The notes under the pieces are model-generated. The model ran no database searches. It was not told the origin of the DNA and was given only the letters and a program-made list of their open reading frames with translations. Shown one piece after another: positions 3,246 to 18,771 of a stretch of 64,000 nt of DNA. The stretch is from the IMG/VR virus record IMGVR_UViG_3300045988_183940; one strand, 5' to 3'. Position numbers and translations under genes: made by a program. Position 1 is the first letter of the stretch. Each line of letters begins with the position of its first letter. The stretch comes from a virus.

Positions 3246-3253
3246 GTGGGAAA

Positions 3254-4216: not shown

Positions 4217-4298
4217 TAAACATTATAAGAAAAAAGGGGGATATAGTCCCTCTTTTTATTAAGATTAGACCTAAATATTTTATACGAAAGGGGGCAAT

Positions 4299-5753
4299 AT
4301 GGGAACTAACAATATATTTGATAATATTGACATATCGGACATACTTGATGAAAGCATGTCAAGTAAAAAAGATGACTCAGAAAAAGAGACAGACAGCAGT
4401 TCTGGCTCAGATGATGACAGCCTTGATTCACTAAGCTTCAATGAAGAGGGTTCACAAGATGGCAATTACATTGATACCCAAGAGGAAAATCTTTTGAAGA
4501 AAATGGATGACGACAGCTTTAACAGCATTATGGAAGAAGTTGAGGGAATGCACACTGAACATAAAAAGCAGGCATTTGAAAAAGGCGATATAGACAGCCT
4601 GTCAATGGATGACATCGTAAACAGTTCCGTAGAGGACACAATAAAGATGGCAACATCGGAAGTAACCTTTGACAAGAGCGTTATTGCAAACCTTACTGAA
4701 GAGCAGCTTTTAAAGATTGACAAGAACGACAAGATTTTCAACTACCTTACCCCAGACCAGAAGGAGTTCATACTGGATGAAGAAGCAAAGGCTTTTACAA
4801 TGAAGTCATTTGGGCAGGACATCATTGCATATATGAACAAGAAGGGAGTAATTGAAATCTCTCTTGAGCAGGACGGATTTATATGGGTTGAGGAATTTGG
4901 ACAGCCTGAACGTATAAATACTGGAATAAAGCTCTCAAATACGGACTCGACAAAGATAATCAAACTTGTGTCAAGGTTCAATGGACATACAATAACAAGG
5001 GAAAATCCAAAAATAGATGGCGTTACACCTAATGGAATGCGTTTTTCAGCACTTATGTATGACTGCGTCCAGTACAGGAACACATTTTCAATACGTAAGC
5101 CAAGCGGAATTGTAATACCTCTGTCGCAATACATTGACAGGAACATAATGACTGCGAAGCAGGTTGACTTTATCGCAAAGCAGATAATGGACAAAAAGAA
5201 CATCCTTTTTTCAGGGGGGACATCATCAGGAAAGACTACGTCCATAAACTCATTCATGACAGTACTTAAAGATTCAGGAGACAAGATTATAAGTATTGAG
5301 GACACGCCTGAGCTAATGCTCTCAAGCAAGATTTGGACAAGGCTTATCTCAAACAGGTACATAAAGCCAATTGAGCTTTTGCAACAGTGTATGAGACTTT
5401 CCCCAGACAGGATGATGATAGGTGAAATTCGTACAGGGGAAGTGACGCTTGAGTACTTAAAAGCGATGAACTCAGGACATAGTGGTGGTATTACATCAAT
5501 CCACGCAAATACAGCATATTCTACAATACTTAAGCTTGAGCAGTACCTGTCAGAAGTTCTTAACGGGGACTATTGGCGACTTATCAGTACAGCAGTTGAC
5601 ATGATTATAAACGTTGGAATAAATCCTGTCACGCATGAACGTCCAATGGTTAAGGAGATAGCAGTTCTTAAAGGCTACGACAGAAAGAGCGGCGACTACA
5701 TCCTAGAGGACGCAATGACAGGAAAACGGATTGAAACATTTGCAATTCAGTAA
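4299..5753 (+). CDS. VirB11/TrbB/CpaF-family secretion ATPase with an acidic Asp/Ser/Glu-rich N-terminal extension
   Basis: Walker A FSGGTSSGKTTSIN, Asp box IEDTPEL, Walker B MMIGEIR, His box GHSGGITSIHAN. Confidence 0.85.
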   Translation: MGTNNIFDNIDISDILDESMSSKKDDSEKETDSSSGSDDDSLDSLSFNEEGSQDGNYIDTQEENLLKKMDDDSFNSIMEEVEGMHTEHKKQAFEKGDIDSLSMDDIVNSSVEDTIKMATSEVTFDKSVIANLTEEQLLKIDKNDKIFNYLTPDQKEFILDEEAKAFTMKSFGQDIIAYMNKKGVIEISLEQDGFIWVEEFGQPERINTGIKLSNTDSTKIIKLVSRFNGHTITRENPKIDGVTPNGMRFSALMYDCVQYRNTFSIRKPSGIVIPLSQYIDRNIMTAKQVDFIAKQIMDKKNILFSGGTSSGKTTSINSFMTVLKDSGDKIISIEDTPELMLSSKIWTRLISNRYIKPIELLQQCMRLSPDRMMIGEIRTGEVTLEYLKAMNSGHSGGITSIHANTAYSTILKLEQYLSEVLNGDYWRLISTAVDMIINVGINPVTHERPMVKEIAVLKGYDRKSGDYILEDAMTGKRIETFAIQ

Positions 5754-5767
5754 TAATTTATATTAAA

Positions 5768-5793
5768 ACGGCAAAAAAGTGCCGTTTTTTTTT
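5768..5793 (+). terminator. rho-independent terminator after the ATPase gene
   Basis: Stem ACGGCA/TGCCGT followed by a T9 run. Confidence 0.6.
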
Positions 5794-5861
5794 ATTGTCT
5801 GCAATTTTTCATAAAATTAATTGATTTATATTAAATAATATGGTATAATCTAATTATAAAA

Positions 5862-6362
5862 TTGAAAGAAAGGAACAAATGTATGACAAACTGGTTTGAG
5901 CTGTACGAAGTTGCACGCTATGGCAGCTTTTCAAAAAATGAAACAATTATAATTATTATTGTAAGCAGCATTTTTATAGCAGTATCATGGCTTATACTTA
6001 CAACTACAAAAAGTGTAATTCTTACACTAATATCCTGCGTCATGATGATTATGTCTGCAATTGGCTTATATACAGGGATAGAGCATAGCATGAACCCAAT
6101 GGCAGCTAAAGAAGAGTTTAACAGAAAGCTCAACAGCGTTTCACCAAGCATTTCAAAAAATGACTTGATTGACACGGCAGACAAGCTGTTTAATTTCTGC
6201 AAGGACTACTACTCTGTAACAAACGGAAGTTTCTGTAAAGACAATCTTTTAAATGAATATACCTACAATATTGTATTTGACAGGATTTACAACAACGGAA
6301 GGACAAGCGATGATATTGAAAATGCAGTTAAGTATATAGAAAGTAAAAAGCGGAATAAATAA
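5862..6362 (+). CDS. family A paralog: membrane-anchored protein with a conserved Cys-containing C-terminal domain
   Basis: TM segments, then the C-terminal motif LFNFCKDYY...FCKDN..NEYTYN..F..Y shared with 6664, 7591 and 38967. The start may be the Met at 5883. Confidence 0.55.
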   Translation: MKERNKCMTNWFELYEVARYGSFSKNETIIIIIVSSIFIAVSWLILTTTKSVILTLISCVMMIMSAIGLYTGIEHSMNPMAAKEEFNRKLNSVSPSISKNDLIDTADKLFNFCKDYYSVTNGSFCKDNLLNEYTYNIVFDRIYNNGRTSDDIENAVKYIESKKRNK

Positions 6363-6389
6363 TATAAATTAAGAAAGGAGCAGAAATTT

Positions 6390-6644
6390 ATGATAAGTGA
6401 ACAAATTTTATCTTTTTTAGGAAAAGTTCCTGAAAAAGCGTCAGAACATGCGTCAGATATTAGTTTAAACATTTTATTTATTGTAATTATTATATTTGCA
6501 CTATGGGGAATTGGGGAAATAATTGATGAGTATGGAAATTATGATTCTCCAGCAGTACCACTACTTTTTATTACAACTTTTTCCGCAGGATTTATATTTA
6601 TAGCAGTTCTAATTGTAGACATTATAGTAGCACTAGCAAAATAA
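6390..6644 (+). CDS. small membrane protein
   Basis: 84 aa with two hydrophobic helices. RBS AAGGAG upstream. Confidence 0.4.
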   Translation: MISEQILSFLGKVPEKASEHASDISLNILFIVIIIFALWGIGEIIDEYGNYDSPAVPLLFITTFSAGFIFIAVLIVDIIVALAK

Positions 6645-6663
6645 AAGAAAGGACGGAATTTCA

Positions 6664-7254
6664 ATGACAGATTATTATGCAGTATTTACTAAGCTCACAT
6701 CTGCCGTTACACAGGATATACATATTCTTGAAAAGATAGAGCCGTTAAAAAAAACATTTTTTATATCAGATAATATAGGTAAAATTTGTCTTATATCATT
6801 ATTTATGTTTATAGTTATAATAGGTTTAATAATGTCATCTCAATTGACAGATAAAAGTAAGACGATTTTTTCAGGGATTATTATTTCAATAGGAATTATA
6901 ATATTCTGCTGGGCAGGCTTTAAATTTAGTGAATATGACGAAAAACAAAGGGAATATTCTGAAAAACGGCAACAATTTAATGACAGAGTTGCTGAAATAG
7001 AAGAAACGAAGTCTCAGACAAGACTTGTCAAGAAAATACTGGGAGAAAATGTGAACGCAAAAGAATTTTACCTTAAAGGGCAAAAGCTGTTTGATTTCTG
7101 TGAGTTCTACTATTCACAGGATGACCCAGAGTTCTGTAAAAATAATGAAGTGAATAAATACACTTTCAATAAAGTATTCAGTTCCATGTATGGAAGCGAT
7201 ACAAAAGATAGTATAAAAGACGTGGATAAAGCGTTAAACTATATAAAAAATTAA
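6664..7254 (+). CDS. family A paralog
   Basis: N-terminal MTDYYAVF, a TM segment, then the C-terminal motif GQKLFDFCEFYYSQDDPEFCKNNEVNKYTFNKVF. Confidence 0.6.
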   Translation: MTDYYAVFTKLTSAVTQDIHILEKIEPLKKTFFISDNIGKICLISLFMFIVIIGLIMSSQLTDKSKTIFSGIIISIGIIIFCWAGFKFSEYDEKQREYSEKRQQFNDRVAEIEETKSQTRLVKKILGENVNAKEFYLKGQKLFDFCEFYYSQDDPEFCKNNEVNKYTFNKVFSSMYGSDTKDSIKDVDKALNYIKN

Positions 7255-7270
7255 GAAAGGGAAACAGATT

Positions 7271-7585
7271 ATGGATGTTAAAAAATTAAAGGAAACATTG
7301 ACAACATTTTTAAAGACTGTCAGAAAGAAAATGGCAGACCCATTATTTATGGGGGAACATAACTTTGAAATTGAGGAGTCAGGAAAATACTTAAAAATTA
7401 AGTTTCATAATATAAAATTAGAGCAAATGGACGCATTTATAATAAACGTTGACACAGAAAGTGGAAAAATCACACCAGATATACAACTTATAGCTGAACC
7501 GAAAACATCAATAAACTACATCATTTCATTTGACGAGCTTTGCCAGAAAATAATGGATGTGATAAATGATGTAAAAGGAGAATAA
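7271..7585 (+). CDS. hypothetical protein
   Basis: 104-aa ORF with an RBS, sitting between family A paralogs. Confidence 0.45.
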   Translation: MDVKKLKETLTTFLKTVRKKMADPLFMGEHNFEIEESGKYLKIKFHNIKLEQMDAFIINVDTESGKITPDIQLIAEPKTSINYIISFDELCQKIMDVINDVKGE

Positions 7586-7590
7586 ATAAG

Positions 7591-8154
7591 ATGGTTGATT
7601 ACTATACTATATTTAAGGAATTGAATGACAATATACTTCAAAAGCCAACAGTTTTAAGTTCTGCTATAAAAAAGCCTATGGATATAAGTAATGTTAGTGC
7701 ATGGATAATTGGATTAGGTGCAGTAATTATGTTATTTTTAATATTTATATATCTTGCAGATAACGACCAAGTATGGGCTCTTATATGCGGATTATTAATT
7801 CCAGCTGGGATGTGGATAACGATAGTCTTCTTTCAAGTTAAGAATCAGAATTACATCAAGGCTTACGAGGCATATAACAGGCAGGTTAAAATAAACAAGT
7901 CGATAGAAAAACAAAGAAAACTTATAAACGAATATGTTCCAAACGCAATGCCTGACAGCTTCTATAAAAATGGGCAGAAAATATATAAGTTCTGCAAGTT
8001 CTACTATTCAGAAAATGACCCGAACTTCTGCAAGGACAACACTGCAAATAGATACACTTTCAACAAGATATTCAATGCAATTTATGGAAAAGATAATAAG
8101 CAGACTAATGAAAATGACTTACAGAAAGCTGTAAGCTGGATTGAGAAAAATTAA
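7591..8154 (+). CDS. family A paralog
   Basis: N-terminal MVDYYTIF, a TM segment, then the C-terminal motif GQKIYKFCKFYYSENDPNFCKDNTANRYTFNKIF. Confidence 0.6.
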   Translation: MVDYYTIFKELNDNILQKPTVLSSAIKKPMDISNVSAWIIGLGAVIMLFLIFIYLADNDQVWALICGLLIPAGMWITIVFFQVKNQNYIKAYEAYNRQVKINKSIEKQRKLINEYVPNAMPDSFYKNGQKIYKFCKFYYSENDPNFCKDNTANRYTFNKIFNAIYGKDNKQTNENDLQKAVSWIEKN

Positions 8155-8304
8155 ATATACAAACTTCCCTCTAGTTCAGGGAAGATTTTTATTAATTTAT
8201 TAAAATATTATCGGACATTAAAATTAATGTTAATTCAGCATTGACTTACATTAACATATATGATATAATCAAACTATAAAATACAGAAAGGACAAAGATT
8301 TATT

Positions 8305-8640
8305 ATGCTTTATATAATGGGAATAATCGTAGCATTTATTATAATATCATCCATATTTGAACTTGGAAGCGGTTCTTCAATGACAGATGGGGCTATGTCC
8401 GCAATGCTTTTGGTACTGGCAATAGGTGTATGGTTTATACCGAGCGGAAACAGTTCAAGCTCAAAGGCTAGTGATGAAGCAAAAGCACAGCAGGAAAAAG
8501 TCTTAAATCTTTGCAGGCAGAACCCTGTAACAAAGATGTATGAGGACAAGGGGACTAAATACGTTGTAATAAACAACGGGGTATATGCCGTTACTGGAGA
8601 ATATTGGGGATATTATAATCTCAATGAGAAATGCAAGTAA
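8305..8640 (+). CDS. family B paralog: small N-terminally anchored protein with a two-Cys C-terminal domain ending NEKCK
   Basis: One TM, then C-x(8)-Y...G..YVV...VY.VT.E.....NEKCK, shared with 13122, 13491 and 13783. Confidence 0.6.
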   Translation: MLYIMGIIVAFIIISSIFELGSGSSMTDGAMSAMLLVLAIGVWFIPSGNSSSSKASDEAKAQQEKVLNLCRQNPVTKMYEDKGTKYVVINNGVYAVTGEYWGYYNLNEKCK

Positions 8641-8742
8641 AAAAAAAGAAAAGATAGAATTTAATCTATCTTTTTTTGTTGACTTATGTTAAATAATTTG
8701 TTATAATAGAATCACATAAAATGAAAGGATGGTAACAGGACA

Positions 8743-10296
8743 ATGGACATTGTTAATATTGTAAAACTTGTGCTTCTGGCGGCACTTGTAATTTTTATTA
8801 TCGGAATGTTTGGATATGTTAAAGTTCCAACAGACAAGGTTGGAATCATATCAGGATTTCGTAAAAGATTTATAAGGGGGAAAATTGGATTTTTCCTTAG
8901 ATGGTTTGAAAGGGTTGACTATATTGACCTTTCCGTATTTTCTGTTGACGTAAACACTGCCGACTTTGTGCCAACATTTGACTATATGGACGTAAATGCG
9001 GACGCAATCGCAAAGCTCCAGATTGACACAAAGAATATTGAAATTGCTTCGCAGAACTTTCTTAACAAGTCAGGAAAGCAGATTGCAGAAGATGTAAAGG
9101 AAATTCTTGAGGGAAACCTGCGTGAAATCATAGGGCAGATGAATATTCAGGACATGATTCAGAACAGGCAGAACTTTAACCAGAAGGTTCAGGAAAATGT
9201 TGCACCAGACTTGGAGCAGATGGGACTTAAGGTCATATCGTTCACAATTCAGACATTCAAGGACAAGAACAACATAATTGAAAGCCTTGCACAGGAAAAC
9301 ACATCAAAAATCAAGGAAAAGGCTTCAATTTCAAAGGCTGAGGCTGAAAAGAACATTGCAATCGCCACAGCAAATGCAAATAAGGAAGCAATGGACATAA
9401 GACTTAAGACTGAACAGGAAATTGCTGAAAAGGACACAGCTGTCCAAGTCAAGAAGGCTACACTTAAGGCTGAAGCTGACACGGAACGTGCAAAGGCTGA
9501 CGCAACATACCAGCTGGAAAGTGAAAAGAAGCGTCTTGAAATTGAAAAGGCTAAAGGGGAAGCCGACTATCAGAGGGAAGAAATTAATATAAGAACTAGA
9601 AAAGCAACCCTTGAAGCAGATATTAAGAACCAGCGTGAAATTGAAGCGGACGCTGACCTTTACAACAGGACTAAGGACGCAGAGGCAAAACTTGTAGAAA
9701 AGCAGAAGGAAATGGAAGCAATAAAATTACAGGCTGAAACTGAAGCAAATGCCGTAAAGATAAAGGCGGAAGCTGAAGCGGACGCAATCAAGCTAAAAGC
9801 TGAAGCTGAAGCACTTGCAACACAGAAGCGTGGGGAAGCGGAAGCTGAAGCTACACGTGCAAGACTTCTGGCAGAGGCTGAAGGTAAGGAAAAAATGCTT
9901 GCAGCAGAAGCCGAAGGGCTTAACAAGAAAGCTGAAGCAATGAAGAAATATGGAGAAGGTGCTATCATGGAAATGTATATAAAGGCACTTCCTGAAATAG
10001 CTAAAAATGTGGCTTCACCTCTTGGCAACGTAGACAGGATAACTATGTACGGGGCTGACGGGACAAGCAACCTTATTTCAAGTATTACGCAGGGAATAAA
10101 CAAGATTTCTGACGGAATTTCAGATTCGACAGGGGTTGACCTTAAGTCAGTTCTTGCTGGATTTCTTGCAAAAGGCGGGCTTGACAAGATTAACAGCTCA
10201 CTAAAGGAAAATGAGGCTAGCGGAACAACTATTATAGTTGATGAAAACGAAAAGCCCATAAAAAAGGATAATCAGAATAATAAAAAGGACAGATAG
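8743..10296 (+). CDS. flotillin / SPFH (band-7) domain protein
   Basis: N-terminal TM, an SPFH-like domain, and a long Ala/Glu-rich coiled coil (AEAEA repeats) typical of bacterial flotillins (YqiK/FloT-like). Confidence 0.8.
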   Translation: MDIVNIVKLVLLAALVIFIIGMFGYVKVPTDKVGIISGFRKRFIRGKIGFFLRWFERVDYIDLSVFSVDVNTADFVPTFDYMDVNADAIAKLQIDTKNIEIASQNFLNKSGKQIAEDVKEILEGNLREIIGQMNIQDMIQNRQNFNQKVQENVAPDLEQMGLKVISFTIQTFKDKNNIIESLAQENTSKIKEKASISKAEAEKNIAIATANANKEAMDIRLKTEQEIAEKDTAVQVKKATLKAEADTERAKADATYQLESEKKRLEIEKAKGEADYQREEINIRTRKATLEADIKNQREIEADADLYNRTKDAEAKLVEKQKEMEAIKLQAETEANAVKIKAEAEADAIKLKAEAEALATQKRGEAEAEATRARLLAEAEGKEKMLAAEAEGLNKKAEAMKKYGEGAIMEMYIKALPEIAKNVASPLGNVDRITMYGADGTSNLISSITQGINKISDGISDSTGVDLKSVLAGFLAKGGLDKINSSLKENEASGTTIIVDENEKPIKKDNQNNKKDR

Positions 10297-10307
10297 AATT
10301 AAGAATA

Positions 10308-10335
10308 AGACAGAATATTTTTTCTGTCTTTTTTC
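10308..10335 (+). terminator. rho-independent terminator
   Basis: Stem AGACAGAA/TTCTGTCT followed by a T-run. Confidence 0.6.
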
Positions 10336-10359
10336 TAAAATTGAAAGGAGAAAATTAAG

Positions 10360-10959
10360 ATGAGAAAAAATAAATTTAGAATAGATTTTCTTGACGGAAC
10401 TGTAACACATGGAAGCAAGAAAGTAGCCTTATTCAATAATAAAGGTGACAATGTGGCATTCTTAAAGTGTGCTGATTCAAAAGATATTTTTGATGTAAGC
10501 CTTAACAGAAAAGTCTTGGACGCAATTGATGAAAAAAGTCTTTACAACACAACTCTTAATATGGTAAAAAATTTTAAAGTTACTTCCGCAAATATAGATT
10601 TTTCTAAAATAAAAAAGAAACCAACAATATTTGTTGCACAAATACTGGAAGTTATTAAAAGACTGAACAGAAAAGAAAATATTGAAAACCTGAATTATGT
10701 TAAAATAAGATTTATAAACTATGACGGAAACTTTACAGATATACTATATAAATTAATAAATAATACTGAGGAAGACTCGATTGGAAACCTTAAAAAAGGC
10801 TATATGAAAGGCTATGTTAAGATTGGAAAAGTTTGCAAGGAATTTTCAGTACCAATTGGAGAAGAGTCCCAAAGGACATCTGATGAGCTTAACCAAGTAT
10901 TTACAAAGACTTATAAAAAAACTTTTTCAGAAAGCAGGGACGTGATTAAAAATGAATAA
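10360..10959 (+). CDS. hypothetical protein
   Basis: 199-aa ORF with the RBS GAAAGGAGA. No motif recognised. Confidence 0.5.
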   Translation: MRKNKFRIDFLDGTVTHGSKKVALFNNKGDNVAFLKCADSKDIFDVSLNRKVLDAIDEKSLYNTTLNMVKNFKVTSANIDFSKIKKKPTIFVAQILEVIKRLNRKENIENLNYVKIRFINYDGNFTDILYKLINNTEEDSIGNLKKGYMKGYVKIGKVCKEFSVPIGEESQRTSDELNQVFTKTYKKTFSESRDVIKNE

Positions 10960-11428
10960 GATATTGTCCATTATAACTGGAGTTTTAGGACTTATACTGC
11001 TAATTTTCACAGCAACTCTTTTTGCAGAATATAAAATTGACTGGGTGAGAGCAATCACTTCTGGAATTACAAGTGTAACACTGTTTGGACTGTGCATATT
11101 AAATTATCAGCAGGACTACAGGAACAGCGTTGAAAAGGAAAAAAAAGATTTTATTAGGGATTCAAACAAATATAAAGTAACATTCAAGGAAATAAAGGAT
11201 ATTGAAAAGACGGAAAATATCCCAGTACATGGAACAGGAATAGGAACTAATGGCAATGTAACAATAAATACATCATTTGCAACCGTTAAAAGCGGTATGC
11301 AGGCAAAATTTCTAATTGTGTTTGAGAACGACAATTCATACTATGTAGGACTTAATACCTATAATTCAGCAGTTGTTGGACAAATGCTGCCTAAAGAATT
11401 TAGGACATCACATGCACTGGACTTATAA
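10952..11428 (+). CDS. hypothetical membrane protein
   Basis: Overlapping start (ATGA). Two N-terminal TM helices. Confidence 0.5.
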   Translation: MNKILSIITGVLGLILLIFTATLFAEYKIDWVRAITSGITSVTLFGLCILNYQQDYRNSVEKEKKDFIRDSNKYKVTFKEIKDIEKTENIPVHGTGIGTNGNVTINTSFATVKSGMQAKFLIVFENDNSYYVGLNTYNSAVVGQMLPKEFRTSHALDL

Positions 11429-11826
11429 AAAAATATAAAAAATTAATTGACTTAATTATAAAATTATGATATAATTACACCATATAAGAGATGAAAGGAC
11501 TGATATATATTATGAAATCAAACGCAACAAAGTCTAACAAAGACAACCACGCAAACCAGAAAAATCCAAACAGTAAAGCAAACAAGGCTGGAAGGGACAA
11601 CAGGAGCAACCAGAAGAACCCTAACAACTAGAAGACTAAAGGATAATGATAATTATAGCAGCTTGATAAAAAATTAAATGTTGAACATAGATAGGATTTG
11701 TAAAAATCCTATTTTTTATTGAACGAATACTCCAAAAAATGATATAAAACAGTATTGACAAAATTGTAAATACATGATATAATAATATGTAATAAAACAA
11801 CGAATACAAGGAGAAGGAGAATTAAA

Positions 11827-12492
11827 ATGGGAACTTATTATGCCTATCAACTTATTAACAATAAAAACGAACTGGAACTTATGCCACACACTATAAACAG
11901 AGGACTTCATTTAAGAAATCATGATTTTGGAAGAGCAAAGTTTCAGGAAGGATTTTATCACAGAAGCGATATGACACAGATTCTTTACAAGATAATGGAG
12001 ATGATTGGAACACCTGTAACAGTAAATACAGCAAATGACTATGACAAGGATGACAATAACTTTAAACATAAAATAAATATAAATCTTAATCCTTTTGTCA
12101 AGACTTCTTTTGATAAAGAGGAACTGTCAGAATTTGTAAGAAAAGAGCTTAAAAAGAAAAAATATATTAAAAATGGATATATTGTCTGTGATAATCGAAA
12201 GCAGTATATAGACATCTCACAATTTGACAATAACAATCTAGTTATATCTCCAATAGCTCTTCTGACAAGAGCAAATTCAGAAGCACAGGGCGGCGGAGAC
12301 TTTGGAGCGTCATCTCTTCTTGAATGGACAGATGAAAGCTGTACATATTTTGAATACAGAAAAAATTCCGACTTTGAAAAGGAACTTATAACTTACTGGA
12401 AAGACTGTGAAATATATTTTACAGAAGACATATCTAAATTAAATGGCTATACAGATATATCTAAACAAATATATTTGGAGCTTAATTTTTAA
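11827..12492 (+). CDS. hypothetical protein
   Basis: 221-aa ORF with the RBS AAGGAGAAGGAGA. Preceded by a promoter with a degenerate copy of the palindromic operator (TTGACAAAATTGTAAA). Confidence 0.5.
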   Translation: MGTYYAYQLINNKNELELMPHTINRGLHLRNHDFGRAKFQEGFYHRSDMTQILYKIMEMIGTPVTVNTANDYDKDDNNFKHKININLNPFVKTSFDKEELSEFVRKELKKKKYIKNGYIVCDNRKQYIDISQFDNNNLVISPIALLTRANSEAQGGGDFGASSLLEWTDESCTYFEYRKNSDFEKELITYWKDCEIYFTEDISKLNGYTDISKQIYLELNF

Positions 12493-12591
12493 AACTTAGC
12501 AGGAAATTAATTTTCCTGTCTTTTAATTTGCAATTGATTTATTTTAAGATATATGATATAATAATCATAAAATGAAAGGATGTGAAAAAAT

Positions 12592-12792
12592 ATGAAAAAA
12601 TTTATAATTGAAAAAGTCCCATTAATATTTTTTATTTCACTTCTTGCAGGAACTATTTCGCAATGGGCAGTGCAAACTGCTGGATTTAATATAAAAGGCT
12701 TATGGTTATTAGTATGTTTAGCAGTTTTTACACTTTCAGGATTTATCTGTTTTGGACTGGATTGTAAAGATGAAAACGATAAAAAGAAATAA
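12592..12792 (+). CDS. small membrane protein
   Basis: 66 aa with two TM helices. RBS GAAAGGA. Confidence 0.4.
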   Translation: MKKFIIEKVPLIFFISLLAGTISQWAVQTAGFNIKGLWLLVCLAVFTLSGFICFGLDCKDENDKKK

Positions 12793-12837
12793 AGATATTA
12801 AACCCTATATAATTAAAAAAAAAGGAAAGGATAAAAA

Positions 12838-13089
12838 ATGAAAAACAAAATTAAAAAAATATTCAATGTTTTAAATATTATTTATTTATTAATTCAAGCA
12901 ATTTTAGTTGTATCAAAAATCAACAACTATTTAAAAATTACTTGGATTGAAGCCTTTTTACCAACAATTGTAATTTTTACAGTATATTTGACTGTTGCTG
13001 TAATGGTTTTTGTTTTTATAAAAATTATTCAAAAAGTTTACGGCACATCAGATAAAGAAATGGATAAAAAGTTTTGGAATAAACTGTAA
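12838..13089 (+). CDS. small membrane protein
   Basis: 83 aa with two TM helices. RBS AAAGGAAAGGA. Confidence 0.4.
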   Translation: MKNKIKKIFNVLNIIYLLIQAILVVSKINNYLKITWIEAFLPTIVIFTVYLTVAVMVFVFIKIIQKVYGTSDKEMDKKFWNKL

Positions 13090-13121
13090 AACAAAACATA
13101 TAATAAGAAAGGAACAAACTT

Positions 13122-13484
13122 ATGGCAAATACAGAAAAAAAAGATAACGATAACTTAATCGTTGCACTTGTTATAATCGGTATACTATCAGTAATAGCTG
13201 TCCTAATTAACCAGACTAGAAATGAGATGAAAGATAAAAATAAAACTGAAAATAATAACACAAAATCTGATAAAAATAATAATGATAAAGAACAGTTTAT
13301 TGATACGTCACAGGATTATTTAACGGAAGGCTATAAAAAGAAAATAATTGATATATGTAAAAGCACAGCACCTTCAAAAACATATCAGGCTAACGGGAAA
13401 AATTTTGTCGTGATAGACAGGAAAGTCTATCGGGTTACAGATGAAGATTACGGACTTTTCACGGTAAACGAAAAATGCAGGTAG
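13122..13484 (+). CDS. family B paralog
   Basis: TM, then C-terminal CKSTAPSKTYQANGKNFVVIDRKVYRVTDEDYGLFTVNEKCR. Confidence 0.6.
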   Translation: MANTEKKDNDNLIVALVIIGILSVIAVLINQTRNEMKDKNKTENNNTKSDKNNNDKEQFIDTSQDYLTEGYKKKIIDICKSTAPSKTYQANGKNFVVIDRKVYRVTDEDYGLFTVNEKCR

Positions 13485-13490
13485 TTAGAA

Positions 13491-13754
13491 ATGAAAAATT
13501 ATAATATTAGAAAAATACAAGAACGTATATTAATTATATCAATGTTTTGTCTAGCGGCAGCGGGTATAATAAGTATATTAAAAGACCACAAATTGCAGGA
13601 AACTACATACAAGGCATATCATAAATGTAAAACAATGCCTCCTACAGAAATTTATCGGAAAAATGGTACAAATTATGTAATATTTGGAAGTGAACAGTAC
13701 AAAGTGACAGATGAATCATATATACGTTTTAAAGTAAATGAAAAATGTAAATAA
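13491..13754 (+). CDS. family B paralog
   Basis: TM, then C-terminal CKTMPPTEIYRKNGTNYVIFGSEQYKVTDESYIRFKVNEKCK. Confidence 0.6.
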   Translation: MKNYNIRKIQERILIISMFCLAAAGIISILKDHKLQETTYKAYHKCKTMPPTEIYRKNGTNYVIFGSEQYKVTDESYIRFKVNEKCK

Positions 13755-13782
13755 TAAAAGCTAAAAAGAAAGGAGAAATAAA

Positions 13783-14037
13783 ATGGAAGACGGACACCAA
13801 TATATGATAATTGCATTAATGCTTGGAATAGCATTGGCTTTTAGCGTAGCCATGGATAGAAAAAATGATGAAAAATTACAAGAAACAACATCTATTGCAT
13901 ACGAAAAATGTAAAACCATACCGCCTACTAAGACTTATCAGGCAGACAGGACAAACTATGTAATGTTTGGAAATGAGCAGTACAAAGTAACAAATGAAAA
14001 GTATGGATTGTTTATAGAAAATAAATTATGTAAATAG
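13783..14037 (+). CDS. family B paralog
   Basis: TM, then C-terminal CKTIPPTKTYQADRTNYVMFGNEQYKVTNEKYGLFIENKLCK. Confidence 0.6.
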   Translation: MEDGHQYMIIALMLGIALAFSVAMDRKNDEKLQETTSIAYEKCKTIPPTKTYQADRTNYVMFGNEQYKVTNEKYGLFIENKLCK

Positions 14038-14127
14038 AAAATCAAAAGGAGTTAAGTGATTACATTGCTATTATCTATAAACTTAATCTATGTCATATTT
14101 ATACTTAGATTTTGATACTATACCGTG

Positions 14128-14177
14128 TTATAGATGAAGACTATGGGCTGTTCACAGTAAATGAAAAATGCCGATAA
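14128..14177 (+). pseudogene. 3' fragment of a family B gene (encodes ...IDEDYGLFTVNEKCR*)
   Basis: Near-identical at the nt and aa level to the last 16 codons of 13122..13484. There is no upstream ORF or start codon. Confidence 0.5.
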
Positions 14178-14214
14178 TAAAAATAAAATTTTAGATTTGA
14201 AGGGAGAATAAATT

Positions 14215-14931
14215 ATGTTTTACGCATATATTATAAAAGGTGAAGAAGGAATAACAGACAGCTGGGAAAAATGTCAGAAAAAAGTAGCTGGAATATCAAA
14301 TGCGAAGTTTAAGAAATTTAAGACAGAAAAGGAAGCAAAGGAGTTCATAAACTCAAACGGAGAAATACAGAAGACATACGTGCTTCTTGACAATAATGCC
14401 ATATATTGCGACAGCGGAACTGGCGGAAACGGAGTAACAAAAATAAGAGTTGTAAACTCGAACGGAACTTCTCTTTTGAAAGGGTATGATTTTAAATCGC
14501 TTGCAAAACAGCTTGAAATACAGAACTCAAAGCTGACTGATGAGGGAACTCTTACAATAATTCACAAGACAAACAACTTCGGAGAACTCCTTGCGTTCTA
14601 TATAGCATTGGAAATAGCAGGAAAGAAACATAAAAAAGGTAAGAAATATAATAAGGTATACTGCGACTCAGAGCTTGTGCTTAACCACTGGAGCAAAGGA
14701 AATATTAAAAAGACCGAAGACAAAGTGACAGCAAACCTTTCAAGAATGGTAACTGAACTCAGGGCAGAATTTGAGAAAAAGACTGGAAGGAAAGTGTGCC
14801 AGATAAAAGGCGAGTTAAATCCAGCGGACTTAGGATTTCATAAGTCAAAATCAAATGTAGTTGCTATAACAGGGCACGTGAAAAATTGCATTTCACTTAA
14901 AAAATATATGAACAAGCTAAAAAAAGGATAA
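14215..14931 (+). CDS. RNase H1-like protein with an N-terminal hybrid-binding domain (HBD / Cauli_VI-like)
   Basis: N-terminal FYAYIIKGEEGITDSWEKCQKKVAGISNAKFKKFKTEKEAKEFI matches the RNase H1 HBD consensus. RNase H-fold motifs IYCDSGTGGNG (D), NFGELLAFYIALE (E), VYCDSELV (D) and NPAD (D) are present. Confidence 0.75.
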   Translation: MFYAYIIKGEEGITDSWEKCQKKVAGISNAKFKKFKTEKEAKEFINSNGEIQKTYVLLDNNAIYCDSGTGGNGVTKIRVVNSNGTSLLKGYDFKSLAKQLEIQNSKLTDEGTLTIIHKTNNFGELLAFYIALEIAGKKHKKGKKYNKVYCDSELVLNHWSKGNIKKTEDKVTANLSRMVTELRAEFEKKTGRKVCQIKGELNPADLGFHKSKSNVVAITGHVKNCISLKKYMNKLKKG

Positions 14932-14934
14932 ACC

Positions 14935-15429
14935 ATGAAAACAAGTACTGAATACACTAAAAACCTTAAAAATAAAATTATAACATCAGATATGCTGTAT
15001 GACAGTATTTTTTCACTGAACAAGAGAGCAAAGAATAACAGGGATATGAAAAACCAGTATAGTTGGAGCAGATATTACTGGAGCTATGTAACCAAGATGA
15101 ATGAATATTATAGACAGAAGGATTTTCTTATAAAAAAGTTTTTAAAGCCTAAACTTATACATAAACAAAAAACTGAAGGCTGGTACGGCGAAACAAAATA
15201 TTTATATTTTATATACTATGAAATGCCACAGGGCAGCTTTCACACACCTGTCAAGCAGGAAGACATTAAAAAGGATTACTCGCATTTAAAAATAGAAAAT
15301 ATACCTGACGACTTTTATACTCACGGAAAGGAGATTCAGGAACTTATGTCTGTACAGTTTGTAAATAAGTTAATCAGACTTGTTGAATCCGATGACTTTG
15401 AATATATAGAAATGGAAGTGAAAGAATGA
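14935..15429 (+). CDS. hypothetical protein
   Basis: 164-aa ORF lying between the two RNase H-like genes and overlapping the next start (ATGA). Confidence 0.5.
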   Translation: MKTSTEYTKNLKNKIITSDMLYDSIFSLNKRAKNNRDMKNQYSWSRYYWSYVTKMNEYYRQKDFLIKKFLKPKLIHKQKTEGWYGETKYLYFIYYEMPQGSFHTPVKQEDIKKDYSHLKIENIPDDFYTHGKEIQELMSVQFVNKLIRLVESDDFEYIEMEVKE

Positions 15430-16316
15430 AAAAATACTACGCATACATAATAAAGGAGACGGGAGAAAAAGGAATTTTTAATACTTGGAATGAGTGTAGA
15501 CAAAAGGTGGAAAACTATAAGTTTGCACTTTATAGAAAATTTGAGACCGAAGACGAAGCCAAAACTTTTCTTCAGAATCCAAACTTTAAACAGGACACAA
15601 GATTTTACTACGCATACATACAAAATTACAACGGAACGATAATTAAAGGATTTGTACAATCTTGGAATGAATGTCAGGACAGGATTCGGGAATGTGCTAA
15701 CACAAAATACAGGAAATGCGAGACTCTTGAACAGACTAATGAGTATCTTGAAAAAGACGGAAAAATAAATACAATTAAGTACTATATACATCTCCCTGAA
15801 AATTCATTGTTTTGTGACGGAAACATCAGAAAAGGAAAAACTTTTGTCAAGGTTGTAAACGAAAATAAGAAAGATGTAGTTGACAGAAAATTCAATATGG
15901 AATATATGAAACTTGCTAAAATAAAGGAAGTCTTTATTTCAGATGATAATTTGCTGACTCTACCCTATGAAAAGACAATAAACTTTGCAAAGCTGCTGGC
16001 TTTATATACATCCCTAGCAACGGCTCTTGAAAATAATCCTGAAATAACACTTATATATTGCGATTCTTTGGTTGTAATAGACGCTTGGAGCTTAGGAAAA
16101 GTAAACGTTGCTGATGTTGATGTACACAATCTTGCAAGCGAGACCGTTTATCTGCGGAAAATGTTTGAAGATAGAGGTGGAGCTGTGAAATGGATTAAAA
16201 ACTGGATAAACCCAGCTATTCTTGGAAACAAGACAGGACATTTTGCACGCACCGTATCACATAAGACAAAAATGTCAATCCCACTTGACGATTTTCTTAA
16301 AATGAAAATAGAATAA
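15426..16316 (+). CDS. tandem hybrid-binding-domain protein with a degenerate, probably inactive, RNase H-like domain
   Basis: Two HBD copies (YYAYIIKETGEKGIFNTWNECRQKV...; FYYAYIQNYNGTIIKGFVQSWNECQDRI...). In the RNase H-like region the expected catalytic E and the last D are replaced (NFAKLLA; NPAILG). Confidence 0.65.
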   Translation: MKKYYAYIIKETGEKGIFNTWNECRQKVENYKFALYRKFETEDEAKTFLQNPNFKQDTRFYYAYIQNYNGTIIKGFVQSWNECQDRIRECANTKYRKCETLEQTNEYLEKDGKINTIKYYIHLPENSLFCDGNIRKGKTFVKVVNENKKDVVDRKFNMEYMKLAKIKEVFISDDNLLTLPYEKTINFAKLLALYTSLATALENNPEITLIYCDSLVVIDAWSLGKVNVADVDVHNLASETVYLRKMFEDRGGAVKWIKNWINPAILGNKTGHFARTVSHKTKMSIPLDDFLKMKIE

Positions 16317-16444
16317 AAAAAAGATAAATTTATATGAAAAACACAATTACAGCATTATTATTTTTCCTGCTTATAACATTCAGGAAGCGTGTAAAAAATT
16401 TAACATAACACGAAAAAATTAAACAATGAAAAGGAGAAATTAAA

Positions 16445-16921
16445 ATGAATCTTGTATTATTAATTACAACATCTATTGCGTGGATATTATATGCTGTGGC
16501 ATGTATTATATCACTGCTGGTTATCTTATACTGTAAAAAGACTGATGAACTGTATAAAAAGTTTGAAAAATTTTTAATTTTAAGAGATGATGAGGATAAA
16601 ATGTTTCTGCTTTTTGGAAACACCATAGTATACTTGGCTACATTTGCCTTGATAGGAACTTTCACATATTCATACTTAATATATCACGATATATTAAATA
16701 AAGCTGCTGTATTGATGGCACTTGAGATTTCAATATGGTATATTATGATAGCTCTTGCTACAGTAATTATAAAAGGCTATTTTTTAAAAAATGAACCTGC
16801 TGATAATTCAAAATTAATAATTCAAATAAAAAACTGTATAGCATATTTAGCAATAGAAGGCATAATCTTTATATCTATGCAGTTATTAATACAAAAAGGA
16901 CTATTAACATTTAACATTTAG
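16445..16921 (+). CDS. polytopic membrane protein
   Basis: 158 aa with 4 to 5 hydrophobic helices. Confidence 0.5.
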   Translation: MNLVLLITTSIAWILYAVACIISLLVILYCKKTDELYKKFEKFLILRDDEDKMFLLFGNTIVYLATFALIGTFTYSYLIYHDILNKAAVLMALEISIWYIMIALATVIIKGYFLKNEPADNSKLIIQIKNCIAYLAIEGIIFISMQLLIQKGLLTFNI

Positions 16922-16942
16922 TTTAAGATAAAATAAAAAAAA

Positions 16943-16967
16943 AGATGTTATAAAAAACATCTTTTTT
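16943..16967. terminator. bidirectional terminator between convergent genes
   Basis: Stem AGATGTT/AACATCT flanked by an A-run and a T-run. Confidence 0.6.
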
Positions 16968-16991
16968 ATTTTACAAAACATATTTTACAAA

Positions 16992-17708
16992 CTACATATC
17001 CATTGCACGTTCCATTTGCTTTTGAGCATTATCAGAACCATCATTCTTTCCGTTAAATGTATCAAGCACACTTTTCATCACAGGGTTACTTGACGGAATA
17101 TACCTGTCAAATGAGCCGTTTTCATAAGCAACCTTTACGTCTTCATCTTCACGTCCCATGTTCCGTCCCTGAATTATGCACTTTTCATACTTTGAATTGT
17201 CGCTGTTCGCATTGATTTCCAAGTCAAACTTCATAGGATTAAATGACTTGACGTTTGAAAGAAGAGCGTCAATATTGTTTTCAAGAGCCTTTTTTTGAAC
17301 TCCGTCCATTGATATGTTAAGGTTTGTAACACGCTCGTCCTTAAGGCTCTCGCTAAGCCTCTCACAAAGGCTGTTAAGTCCAGCCCCTTTTGAAAAGTCC
17401 ATATTTGAAACATCATTTAACACCTTGTCCCCAAGTTCCTTTGTAATTTTATCGTTAGGCTCAAATACATTCACCATAACGGAAAATGACTGGGGAGAAT
17501 CTGACTGGACTGTGTCAAGATATATTGCACGGCTTCCAACTGTAACGTTTACATCCTGCATTTTAGGATTAATCTTGCTGTTCCGTATTGAAAATCCCAT
17601 ATCAGACTCAACATACTCAGTCTTGTCATTCTGAATATAATCTCCTACGGGAGCTCCCCTGAAAGTAACCTTTTCCATAACTTTTTTTGAAATATCCATA
17701 TATACCAC
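16992..17708 (-). CDS. hypothetical protein
   Basis: 238-aa ORF on the minus strand, last gene of a 4-gene minus-strand unit. Confidence 0.5.
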   Translation of the reverse strand: MVYMDISKKVMEKVTFRGAPVGDYIQNDKTEYVESDMGFSIRNSKINPKMQDVNVTVGSRAIYLDTVQSDSPQSFSVMVNVFEPNDKITKELGDKVLNDVSNMDFSKGAGLNSLCERLSESLKDERVTNLNISMDGVQKKALENNIDALLSNVKSFNPMKFDLEINANSDNSKYEKCIIQGRNMGREDEDVKVAYENGSFDRYIPSSNPVMKSVLDTFNGKNDGSDNAQKQMERAMDM

Positions 17709-17785
17709 ATCCTTTATATTTAATTTTAGATAATATAATTATATCACGTAGTGTAAAAATTATGCTAATAAAAAAGTCCGTATTT

Positions 17786-18271
17786 CTACGGACACATTTT
17801 CATATCATTTCTAATTTTTGCGACATCTATGTTACAGCTTTTGTAATTCACGATTGAATAAAGTGCACTTGGGATAAGATTGTCCTCAGTATAGTTTCCT
17901 ATTCCGTAAACATACTCAAAAATTATGTCAATTAATGTATCGCCATATTTTTTCCAGTCCATGTTTCCATCCGCATTTACAAAATCTTTTTCATTAACTG
18001 TAAATCCAGTTATCTCTTCCTGATATTTAGCAAACTGCTCAACTGACAATTTGTAGCAAGTGTTCCGCCCAATAAGGCTCTGAAGCTCATCCCTGCTGGA
18101 AATCCCCTTGTCCTGATTCCATAAAAATTCAGGAAGAGAAACAGGCTTGATGTCAGGAAGGGACAAAAGCTCATCCTTAACCTTTTCCCAGATTTCCCTA
18201 AAAATTAGATAAAATGACATTTCCACAAGTTTTACTGATTTATCTTTTTCCATAATAGCCTGTCCTTTCAT
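17786..18271 (-). CDS. hypothetical protein
   Basis: 161-aa ORF. A terminator hairpin GTCCGTA/TACGGAC overlaps its stop. Confidence 0.5.
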   Translation of the reverse strand: MKGQAIMEKDKSVKLVEMSFYLIFREIWEKVKDELLSLPDIKPVSLPEFLWNQDKGISSRDELQSLIGRNTCYKLSVEQFAKYQEEITGFTVNEKDFVNADGNMDWKKYGDTLIDIIFEYVYGIGNYTEDNLIPSALYSIVNYKSCNIDVAKIRNDMKMCP

Positions 18272-18282
18272 ATAAATACTTA

Positions 18283-18771
18283 TTACTTAACATATTCAGG
18301 GCTGTCATCAGCCTGAGTTGATACAGATATTCCATTTGTCCCATACTTTACTAAAAGCCTTACAGGAAGCTCTGACTTAACCATGTCGTCGTGAGTATTT
18401 ACAAGTCTTATATGAATATCATAATTATTTTCATCAAGTGCTGTAAGCTCATCAATTTCAACTGATATTACACAGTCATCGCAGTCTTCAAAGCTCTCAG
18501 TAAAGTCTTTTCCATGCTCCCTTATAAACTTTCTGGCAGTTTCCACGTCAGACTTGGAATAATTTTCCGATAATTCACTAAGTCTTTTCTTAAAGCCTTT
18601 TACCGTTTCAGTCTCAGGCTTTGCGAGTTTATACAGTTCAACGCTTAAGTTCTCGGTGCGTTCCTTTGTGATTTCAGGGTCAGCATTTCTGCGTCCAAAT
18701 ACAAATACCGCAAAGAGTATCACGATTACTGCTATTATTCCAAATCCTGCCAGATTCCTGTTAATCTTCAT
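18283..18771 (-). CDS. hypothetical protein with an N-terminal membrane anchor
   Basis: 162-aa ORF with a single N-terminal TM (FGIIAVIVILFAVFVFG). Confidence 0.5.
   Translation of the reverse strand: MKINRNLAGFGIIAVIVILFAVFVFGRRNADPEITKERTENLSVELYKLAKPETETVKGFKKRLSELSENYSKSDVETARKFIREHGKDFTESFEDCDDCVISVEIDELTALDENNYDIHIRLVNTHDDMVKSELPVRLLVKYGTNGISVSTQADDSPEYVK

What the first reader, a model, noticed from the sequence alone, without database searches (positions are those of the whole stretch)
8305..14177. Family B: about six small paralogs ending in a two-Cys ...NEKCK domain, plus a dead 3' gene fragment
8305..8640, 13122..13484, 13491..13754, 13783..14037, divergent 44085..44438 and probably 30737..30958 are each 75 to 120 aa. 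Each has one N-terminal TM and a C-terminal unit of about 45 aa, C-x(8-9)-Y...G.N(Y/F)V.......Y(K/R)VT.E.Y..F..NEKC(K/R). The two Cys are spaced for a disulfide in an extracytoplasmic domain. The sequence at 14128..14177 repeats the last 16 codons of gene 13122..13484 with no gene in front of it. That is a remnant of recombination within the family. It shows ongoing duplication and loss, as in toxin or immunity-like cassettes and in surface-exclusion proteins.
Basis: seen in the sequence. Interest (0 to 1): 0.55.

Follow-up and report, generated by a model that had tools for sequence, protein, structure and literature searches.

The report
Two-cysteine small membrane protein family
A giant plasmid-like element from human mouth bacteria carries several fast-changing copies, plus one dead fragment, of a previously undescribed small membrane protein that ends in a tiny two-cysteine domain; the family is real, but its function is only guessed.

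Summary
The core observation holds. ORFs 8305..8640 (A), 13122..13484 (B), 13491..13754 (C) and 13783..14037 (D) share a 47-50 aa C-terminal domain, C-x8-Y...N(Y/F)V...Y.V...(Y/F)G.(F/Y)...C(K/R)-stop. 14124..14177 is a stop-bounded remnant of the last 17 codons of a B-type copy. 44085..44438 is a probable distant member (hhalign 84%). 30737..30958 is not a member.

The family matches no Pfam, PHROG, NCBIfam, PADLOC, PDB or fold entry. It has only about 10 clusters among 1.84 billion representative proteins. Every member with retrievable context lies in one lineage of large metagenomic contigs, one labelled human oral. There it sits downstream of a P-type-like conjugation module (VirB4, TrbL/VirB6, TrbB/VirB11). 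The window is probably an Inocle-like giant plasmid.

Related contigs show a tandem A duplication, two independent C/D gene fusions, presence or absence of the fragment, and longer B-type pseudogenes at the same slot. B-D evolve faster than their neighbours. So ongoing duplication and loss is supported.

AlphaFold gives a confident TM helix, three-strand sheet and short helix. Membrane topology and the disulfide remain unproven.

My best guess, at low confidence, is an envelope-exposed recognition or entry-exclusion-like accessory of the conjugation system.

The parts
8305..8640 (+). Member A (111 aa). Two N-terminal hydrophobic segments plus the C-terminal two-Cys domain (domain about 8497..8637). 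It lies immediately upstream of the flotillin gene.
   Evidence: 42.3 bits against an HMM of B, C and D; maximum shuffle 6.9. Promoter-like TTGACT-17-TATAAT with an upstream TG (extended -10) at 8241..8269, preceded by a terminator-like hairpin at 8164..8184. Ortholog P0017. Tandemly duplicated in L014.
13122..13484 (+). Member B (120 aa). One TM, a charged low-complexity linker, and the two-Cys domain (13338..13481).
   Evidence: Orthologs P0016 and L001 9346..9699. 85.5% aa identity to the L001 ortholog, against 97-100% for most flanking genes beyond the cluster.
13491..13754 (+). Member C (87 aa). One TM plus the two-Cys domain (13602..13751). It starts 6 nt after B's stop.
   Evidence: AlphaFold2: full length pLDDT 83, domain alone pLDDT 94.7.
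13783..14037 (+). Member D (84 aa). One TM plus the two-Cys domain (13885..14034). 62% identical to C over the last 56 aa.
   Evidence: Fused with C into a single gene in L014, L015 and P0007.
14124..14177 (+). Dead 3' fragment of a B-type copy: the last 17 codons plus the stop, RVIDEDYGLFTVNEKCR*. There is no TM and no plausible start, and a TAG stop lies at 14106 in frame.
   Evidence: E 2.6e-9; 43/54 nt and 16/17 aa against B. Conserved in L001, L011 and L016. The 145-bp segment 14052..14196 that carries it is absent in L013. Sister lineages carry longer B-type pseudogenes at this slot.
44085..44438 (+). Probable distant member E (117 aa). One TM, a helical stalk, a two-Cys domain with a 9-residue insertion (7+2) and a 9-residue C-terminal extension. 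Single copy and slowly evolving.
   Evidence: hhalign probability 83-84%, E 8e-6 to 9e-6. 19.1 bits against the broad profile, with 0 of 2000 shuffles reaching this. All six orthologs found are at least 90% identical.
12534..13089 (+). Likely 5' part of the transcription unit that contains B-C-D: a promoter-like site at 12534..12562 and two small two-TM protein genes, 12592..12792 and 12838..13089.
   Evidence: Terminator-like hairpin at 12499..12519, then TTGATT-17-TATAAT (10/12, with an upstream TG) (consensus match only). The two genes are 69.7% and 81.9% identical to their L001 orthologs, so they are hypervariable like B-D.
486..5753 (+). Context: a conjugation (type IV secretion) module. 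It comprises a TrbL/VirB6-like protein (486..3245), an unknown 320-aa protein (3254..4216) and a TrbB/VirB11-like ATPase (4299..5753).
   Evidence: Pfam TrbL 2.3e-11 and T2SSE 9.7e-29. NCBIfam TrbB_P 221 bits and TrbL_P 57 bits, both below the curated cut-offs. The same order, preceded by VirB4, is seen in L005.
8743..10296 (+). Context: flotillin/SPFH gene directly downstream of A.
   Evidence: Pfam Band_7 3.8e-25 and Flot 6.8e-12. The same adjacency holds for the P0019-type member in L006 and L007.
14215..14931 (+). Context: a gene encoding an RNase H1 N-terminal-domain protein. It is the left end of a highly conserved block whose left boundary (about 14197) is a recurrent junction with the variable family region.
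   Evidence: Pfam Cauli_VI 1.1e-10. Binned identity to L002 and L006 is 66% at 14127-14199 and 93-100% from 14200 to 15452.

Best explanation
Shown. A, B, C and D, and probably E, belong to a lineage-restricted and previously undescribed family of 84-142 aa membrane-anchored proteins. Each has one or two N-terminal hydrophobic helices. The last helix continues as a stalk ending at the first invariant Cys. A three-stranded beta-meander and a short helix follow. The chain ends two residues after the second invariant Cys (C-K/R-stop).

The genes are accessory cargo of one lineage of large plasmid-like elements from the human mouth, probably Inocle-like. There they sit downstream of the VirB4 - TrbL/VirB6 - TrbB/VirB11 conjugation module, in two variable slots. 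One slot is just upstream of the flotillin gene. The other is just upstream of the RNase H-like gene.

Copies are gained and lost by tandem duplication and unequal homologous recombination between paralogs, and by deletion. The 14124..14177 fragment is the stump of a B-type copy left at the second slot.

Inferred. The two Cys form a disulfide that staples the small domain to the stalk on the outer face of the cytoplasmic membrane. The domain is a specific binding knob. The several diverged copies serve envelope-level recognition tied to conjugation. The most likely role is entry or surface exclusion of related elements, analogous to TrbK/Eex or YddJ. Different paralogs would cover different incoming variants.
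For: Family and statistics.

Restriction. There are only 15 proteins in 5.8 billion clusters and about 10 clusters in 1.84 billion representatives. None is found in GTDB species genomes or IMG/VR.

Conserved neighbourhood next to the type IV secretion genes: seen in all seven contig regions fetched by protein look-up and in the longer JGI loci.

Structure. The AlphaFold2 model of the domain has pLDDT 94.7: helix 2-13, strands 18-22, 25-30 and 33-37, helix 39-42. In the full-length model the first Cys lies at the end of helix 2-46.

Selection and turnover.
- Both Cys are invariant in 12 diverse members, in a proteome with 1.2% Cys.
- pN/pS for B-D is 0.26-0.46, so the genes are functional.
- pN is 0.038-0.071, against at most 0.026 in the flanking genes beyond the hypervariable small-gene cluster 12592..14037 and 0.000-0.016 in the conjugation genes.
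- Copy-number and fusion variants among close relatives.

Precedent. Small membrane-anchored exclusion proteins are encoded in or beside type IV secretion operons. TrbK of RP4 is a 69-aa protein next to trbL whose C-terminal region is essential (PMC8923210). YddJ of ICEBs1 targets the VirB6 homolog ConG (bioRxiv 10.1101/2021.01.25.428195).

N-in, C-out topology is favoured by strongly positive N-tails in C, P0019 and P0022.
Against: No sequence or fold similarity to any exclusion protein or to anything else.

No lipobox.

Known exclusion genes are single copy. Here there are 2-5 copies per element.

Between the window and L001 the TrbL/VirB6 homolog is 99.9% identical, while B, C and D differ by 8-15%. 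The family therefore does not track the usual exclusion target.

Topology is unresolved. Several members (D, P0023, B) have neutral or negative N-tails and positive residues after the TM. For the two-TM members (A, P0020 and the 142-aa type), a naive N-in reading puts the domain in the cytoplasm.

No thioredoxin-like oxidoreductase was seen in the window.

Expression is not shown. The promoter-like sites are consensus matches no more frequent than in shuffled sequence.

The host (Gram-positive Streptococcus or another) is not established for this window.
Confidence: 0.35

Rival explanations
1. NfeD-like partners of the element's flotillin. A membrane anchor plus a small beta-domain encoded directly upstream of an SPFH/flotillin gene would bind or regulate the flotillin scaffold, as NfeD proteins (for example YuaF with FloT) are thought to do.
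Confidence: 0.12
2. Envelope-protecting accessory proteins unrelated to conjugation. For example, membrane-anchored superinfection-exclusion-like proteins that block phage DNA entry or another surface process. Their diversification would then be driven by phages rather than by sister elements.
For: The size, membrane anchor, small exposed domain, several diverged copies and fast evolution fit phage-type Sie proteins as well as they fit plasmid exclusion. A gives a sub-threshold PHROG hit to a 'Sie-like' family (E 0.038, TM region only).
Against: The PHROG hit is not significant and covers only hydrophobic sequence. No PADLOC hit. The family is absent from IMG/VR viral contigs. Its conserved placement beside the type IV secretion module favours a conjugation-linked role.
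Confidence: 0.15
3. Cytoplasm-facing small membrane proteins (N-out, C-in, or a two-TM hairpin). The two Cys would not form a disulfide. They might bind a metal across a dimer or simply be structural. The domain would then dock a cytoplasmic partner such as the TrbB-like ATPase.
For: The charge distribution in D, P0023 and B, and the two-TM architecture of A, P0020 and the 142-aa type, are compatible with a cytoplasmic C-terminus. Exported proteins of low-GC Gram-positive bacteria tend to avoid cysteine (my own knowledge). No oxidoreductase gene was seen nearby.
Against: C, P0019 and P0022 have strongly positive N-tails that predict C-out. Exactly two invariant Cys, placed at the stalk end and the chain end of a 45-aa domain, is the classic pattern of a stabilising disulfide in a domain too small for a large hydrophobic core.
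Confidence: 0.15
4. Toxin/immunity-type or bacteriocin-like cassettes, with the fragment as an 'orphan' module.
For: Tandem diverged copies and a displaced 3' fragment superficially resemble orphan modules of polymorphic toxin loci.
Against: There is no toxin or immunity domain, no alternating two-gene pattern, no leader peptide motif, and no PADLOC, Pfam or NCBIfam hit. The fragment is followed by a conserved RNase H-like gene, not by an immunity-like gene. All copies share one architecture, so there are no distinct 'toxin' and 'antidote' partners.
Confidence: 0.05

Closest known systems
TrbK / Eex entry-exclusion lipoproteins of P-type and IncN conjugative plasmids (RP4 TrbK is 69 aa; PMC8923210)
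   Same: Both are small proteins anchored in the cytoplasmic membrane, with a short exposed C-terminal part that carries the function. Both are encoded with a P-type-like TrbB/TrbL transfer system. Both are dispensable for transfer itself.
   Different: No detectable sequence similarity. The anchor is a TM helix, not a lipobox-acylated Cys. The genes lie downstream of the trbB-like ATPase rather than between trbJ and trbL. There are 2-5 diverged copies per element rather than one. The family has a conserved Cys pair and an ordered mini-domain. Exclusion activity is untested.
YddJ of ICEBs1, the exclusion protein that targets the VirB6 homolog ConG (bioRxiv 10.1101/2021.01.25.428195)
   Same: Both are small element-encoded proteins in the conjugation region of an element from a low-GC host. 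The specificity model, in which a few variable patches recognise an extracellular loop of the VirB6 homolog, would fit a small variable knob.
   Different: No homology has been shown. The family diverges by 8-15% between two elements whose TrbL/VirB6 proteins are 99.9% identical, which is not the co-variation seen for YddJ and ConG. The family is multi-copy.
NfeD family (Pfam PF01957), membrane partners of SPFH/flotillin proteins
   Same: Both have N-terminal TM segment(s) plus a small beta-rich C-terminal domain. One copy (A, or the P0019 type) sits directly upstream of a flotillin gene.
   Different: No Pfam match. The fold has three strands plus a helix and a Cys staple, not an OB barrel. 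Most copies are not next to the flotillin gene, and some elements carry the family without it.
Type IV pilin-like proteins
   Same: Both have a long N-terminal hydrophobic helix that continues into a stalk packed against a small beta-sheet, with a C-terminal Cys pair.
   Different: There is no class III signal peptide or prepilin-peptidase motif. The N-termini are not conserved among paralogs. The sheet has three strands. The Cys pair links the stalk end to the chain end rather than delimiting a D-region.

Membership tests
TrbK/Eex entry-exclusion lipoproteins | Sequence similarity to TrbK/Eex family models | tested here: not met
   Neither Pfam at E up to 1 nor NCBIfam at E up to 0.01 gave a TrbK/Eex hit for A-E. 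Caveat: I did not verify which TrbK models those libraries contain.
TrbK/Eex entry-exclusion lipoproteins | Lipoprotein signal peptide with a lipobox Cys | tested here: not met
   By inspection of the sequences. A, B and D have no Cys in or after the hydrophobic segment. C has ...SMFC... in mid-helix, without a G, A or S at position -1.
TrbK/Eex entry-exclusion lipoproteins | Gene placed between the trbJ/virB5-like and trbL/virB6-like genes | tested here: not met
   Family genes lie 2.5-8 kb downstream of the trbB-like ATPase. Only a 124-aa ORF (95..469) precedes trbL.
TrbK/Eex entry-exclusion lipoproteins | Reduces entry of the cognate element when expressed in recipients | not testable with these tools
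   This needs mating assays.
YddJ-type exclusion (ICEBs1) | Specificity co-varies with an extracellular loop of the VirB6 homolog | tested here: inconclusive
   Between the window and L001, TrbL is 99.9% identical at the aa level while B, C and D are 85.5%, 92.0% and 90.5% identical. This gives no sign of co-variation, but only one close pair was compared.
YddJ-type exclusion (ICEBs1) | Sequence homology to YddJ | not tested
The general library scans gave nothing.
NfeD (PF01957) | Match to the NfeD profile, or an OB-fold C-terminal domain | tested here: not met
NfeD (PF01957) | Operon partner of an SPFH/flotillin gene | tested here: inconclusive
   This holds for A and for the P0019-type copies. 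It does not hold for B-E. L001 and L005 have members without a flotillin gene in the fetched 20 kb.
Type IV pilins | Class III signal peptide (Gly at -1, Glu at +5) that is conserved among members | tested here: not met
   The N-termini are unrelated among paralogs and lack the motif.
Inocle giant extrachromosomal elements (identity of the surrounding replicon) | Human oral source, about 32% GC, VirB4-type transfer genes, absence from isolate genomes, mostly unannotatable genes | tested here: inconclusive
   All listed traits fit (PMC12340149). However, no Inocle sequence was available for direct comparison, and the conserved Inocle markers (sortase A, bifunctional PBP) were not seen in this 64-kb window.

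The most novel reading that the evidence does not exclude
The family is the specificity determinant of a new multi-allelic exclusion or mate-recognition system of Inocle-like giant oral plasmids. In this reading each disulfide-stapled knob blocks, or recognises, the transfer apparatus of one variant of the element. The recombining array then sets which elements can coexist in a cell, which would be a first handle on the population biology of these uncultured replicons.
Probability: 0.15. Interest if true: 0.6.

Novelty: new variant of a known kind. Interest (0 to 1): 0.36.

Why it matters
Giant plasmid-like elements of oral bacteria were recognised only recently, and most of their genes are unannotated. 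This family is a compact marker of one such lineage, and a 48-position profile identifies it. It sits beside the transfer machinery, it is under purifying selection yet evolves several times faster than its neighbours, and its copy number changes between near-identical elements. Such behaviour is typical of genes at an interface with competitors, whether sister elements, phages or the host envelope. If the exclusion-like role were confirmed, it would give a way to type these elements and to explain their coexistence. If not, this remains a well-documented example of a lineage-specific mini-protein family with a new small fold.

Tried and rejected
- Phage origin. Megablast of 8000-15000 against phage genomes found nothing. 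PHROG scans of ten large ORFs found nothing. The family is absent from IMG/VR.
- Known families. Pfam, PHROGs, NCBIfam, PADLOC and a PDB sequence search gave nothing significant for the domain.
- Host identification through isolate genomes. The family was not found. The ATPase has only relatives at 32% identity or less, in unrelated MAGs. The plasmid database gives at best 37% identity, to Campylobacter TrbB.
- 30737..30958 as a member: rejected.
- My interim idea that the fragment marks the left edge of a recently exchanged 94%-identical tract: rejected after binning. The fragment stretch is only 66% identical to L002 and L006, and the conserved tract starts at about 14197.
- A thioredoxin-like CxxC enzyme in the window: none evident.
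- Supplementary tables of the Inocle paper: not held.

Full report
**1. What is in the sequence**

They are A 8305..8640 (111 aa), B 13122..13484 (120 aa), C 13491..13754 (87 aa) and D 13783..14037 (84 aa). B, C and D are head to tail, with 6-nt and 28-nt spacers, and each has a Shine-Dalgarno-like GGAG motif.

Their last 47-50 residues align without internal gaps. Nine columns are invariant, including both Cys.

I ran a profile of these four domains against every stop-to-stop segment of all six frames of the window.
- It recovers the four genes at E 1e-27 to 3e-29.
- It recovers one further segment, 14109..14174, at E 2.6e-9.
- The next hit is at E 0.12.

Leave-one-out tests with 2000 shuffles are unambiguous. 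A scores 42.3 bits versus at most 6.9, and B scores 59.7 bits versus at most 9.5.

The extra segment translates as *ILILYRVIDEDYGLFTVNEKCR*. An in-frame TAG lies at 14106. The DNA upstream of about 14124 is unrelated to any family gene. The segment matches B's end at 16 of 17 residues but only 43 of 54 nucleotides. It is therefore a stump of a separately diverged coding copy, not a recent duplicate of B.

The two outlying candidates fare differently.
- 44085..44438 (E) scores only E 0.38 against the four-sequence profile. A broader profile that includes metagenomic members gives 19.1 bits, with 0 of 2000 shuffles reaching that, and hhalign probability 83-84%. I treat E as a probable distant member with a 9-residue insertion (7+2) and a 9-residue C-terminal tail.
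- 30737..30958 is indistinguishable from shuffled sequence (hhalign 0.7%) and is rejected.

A has two hydrophobic segments rather than one.

**2. Where the family occurs**

No Pfam, PHROG, NCBIfam, PADLOC or PDB sequence entry matches the domain.

In 5.8 billion protein clusters the profile finds 15 proteins, all from metagenomes. An exhaustive HMMER pass over 1.84 billion representatives finds 12 hits at E 0.001 or better.
- Ten are real small proteins with the same layout of TM plus C...C(K/R)-stop. They include five new diverged types (P0018, P0019, P0020, P0022, P0023).
- Two are spurious repeat proteins.

Every member whose contig could be read lies in the same kind of element, in this order: VirB4, two unknown genes, TrbL/VirB6 (about 910-919 aa), a 316-320 aa unknown, the TrbB/VirB11-like ATPase, then variable small genes including PcfJ and flotillin. 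Family member(s) sit within that variable stretch, ahead of an RNase H1-N-terminal-domain gene and, further downstream, SLT and RusA.

Contigs reach 137-150 kb, and one carries the label 'human oral metagenome'. The family is absent from 185,579 GTDB species genomes and from IMG/VR. The ATPase has no close relative in isolate genomes or in PLSDB plasmids.

The window has about 32% GC, and most of its genes are unannotatable. These traits match the recently described Inocles. [quoted passage not shown] This identification is an inference. I had no Inocle sequence to compare against.

**3. Turnover**

I mapped the broad profile onto thirteen related loci (L001-L007 and L011-L016). Each element carries two to five intact family genes, in some cases plus a B-type pseudogene or fragment, and the repertoire changes even among close relatives.
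- L001, L011 and L016 have B, C, D and the same fragment as the window.
- L013 has B, C and D but lacks exactly 14052..14196, the 145 bp that carry the fragment.
- L014 and L015 have B followed by a single C/D fusion gene, C up to ...CKTMPPT and then D.
- P0007 is another C/D fusion, with an earlier breakpoint after ...KLQETT. This means two independent unequal crossovers.
- L014 has two tandem A-type copies.
- In the more distant lineages L002-L004, L006 and L007, the position directly left of the RNase H-like gene holds a longer B-type pseudogene. It has no TM segment. In L002-L004 the reading frame ends ...VNKK at a TGA where the family has its final Cys codon (TGC). In L006 and L007 there is no start codon.

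The window's fragment is thus the shortest surviving stump of a copy that decays at that slot in every lineage examined.

Identity to L002 and L006 is 66% across the fragment and jumps to 93-100% from about 14200 to 15452. So about 14197 is a recurrent junction between a hypervariable region and a strongly conserved block.

Between the window and L001, the genes outside the hypervariable small-gene cluster 12592..14037 are 95.0-100% identical in protein (most of them 97-100%), and the TrbL homolog is 99.9% identical. In contrast:
- B, C and D are 85.5%, 92.0% and 90.5% identical, with pN 0.038-0.071 and pN/pS 0.26-0.46.
- Those flanking genes beyond the cluster have pN at most 0.026, and the conjugation genes have pN/pS 0.02-0.07.

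The family genes are therefore constrained, and so functional, but evolve several-fold faster than their surroundings. The counts are small (8-20 non-synonymous differences per gene).

**4. Structure and topology**

AlphaFold2 on C with 16 family sequences gives pLDDT 83. It predicts one helix (2-46) that spans the TM segment and a stalk ending at the first Cys, then strands 53-57, 60-65 and 68-72 and a helix 74-81. The second Cys lies two residues from the end. The domain alone gives pLDDT 94.7.

I could not read model coordinates, so the Cys-Cys distance is unverified.

A simple hydropathy and charge analysis is not decisive on orientation.
- C, P0019 and P0022 have strongly positive N-tails, which favours N-in with the domain outside.
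- D, B and P0023 are neutral or reversed.
- The two-TM members would, read naively, place the domain in the cytoplasm.

An extracytoplasmic disulfide is the most economical reading of two invariant Cys bracketing a 45-residue domain, but it remains an inference.

**5. Function**

Nothing identifies the function directly. The following is established:
- a membrane anchor plus a small ordered domain;
- constant linkage to a P-type-like transfer module (TrbB_P 221 bits and TrbL_P 57 bits, both below the curated cut-offs);
- multiple diverged copies, rapid change, and gain and loss by recombination.

Consensus promoter and terminator matches suggest that A is its own transcription unit. They also suggest that B-C-D are co-transcribed with two hypervariable two-TM mini-proteins from a promoter-like site at 12534..12562. 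These matches are no more frequent than in shuffled sequence.

The closest functional analogues are the small membrane-anchored entry-exclusion proteins encoded with type IV secretion genes. These are TrbK/Eex (PMC8923210) and YddJ, which targets the VirB6 homolog ConG (bioRxiv 10.1101/2021.01.25.428195). I adopt an exclusion-like or recognition role as the best guess, at low confidence.

Against this reading:
- there is no homology and no lipobox;
- the gene position is atypical;
- the family is multi-copy;
- there is no co-variation with TrbL in the one close pair available.

Rivals:
- An NfeD-like partner of the adjacent flotillin. This fits only A-type and P0019-type copies, and the profile and fold tests failed.
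- A phage-directed Sie-like role.
- A cytoplasm-facing orientation without a disulfide.
- Toxin/immunity cassettes, for which no supporting feature was found.

**6. Verdict**

The claim of ongoing duplication and loss is now documented by comparative data.

The functional analogies remain untested. This is a new, very narrowly distributed mini-protein family with an unmatched small fold, on a probably Inocle-like element. It has moderate interest as a marker and as a candidate interface or exclusion determinant.

Noticed in passing
window 31485..34907: Two adjacent tRNA-like elements lie just upstream of a TROVE/Ro60-like gene (31786..33168, DUF7788/DUF2828) and RtcB (33759..34907). The elements are 31485..31604 (120 nt) and 31613..31688; ARAGORN cannot assign an anticodon to the second. 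The arrangement resembles a Ro60 - Y-RNA (tRNA-like YrlA) - RtcB RNA-repair module.
   Followed up: partly
window 1..64000: The whole window looks like part of a giant plasmid-like element from the human mouth, probably Inocle-like. It has about 32% GC, a P-type-like TrbL/TrbB module, an SLT, a RusA-HTH fusion and a DinG-like helicase, and most ORFs have no family. It has no relatives in GTDB species genomes, PLSDB, phage genomes or IMG/VR (PMC12340149).
   Followed up: partly
window 6251..12398; L001 6995..8620: This 6.1-kb stretch, which includes member A and the flotillin gene, is missing from the otherwise 97%-identical contig L001. L001 carries an IS605-family TnpB (OrfB_IS605) gene at that place instead.
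   Followed up: no
window 14197..16320: The block holding the RNase H1-N-terminal-domain gene (14215..14931) and the next gene is 93-100% identical to lineages whose flanks are only 68-80% identical. This points to recent exchange or unusual constraint. The window also has an 808-bp insertion (15453..16260) that supplies most of a second gene with the same N-terminal domain (15426..16316).
   Followed up: partly
window 14151..14178: The last codons of the dead fragment form a promoter-like TTCACA-16-GATAAT, 37 nt upstream of the RNase H-like start codon. This could explain why just this stump is retained. It is a consensus match only.
   Followed up: no
window 12592..13089: Two small two-TM protein genes (66 and 83 aa) lie upstream of B in the same apparent operon. 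They are even more variable between the window and L001 (69.7% and 81.9% aa identity; pN/pS 0.69 and 0.41) than the two-Cys family itself.
   Followed up: no
window 30737..30958: The rejected candidate F is still a small TM protein that ends ...C-x20-CK. It may be an unrelated mini-protein or one diverged beyond detection. The upstream in-frame extension (from 30626) overlaps the preceding ORF.
   Followed up: partly
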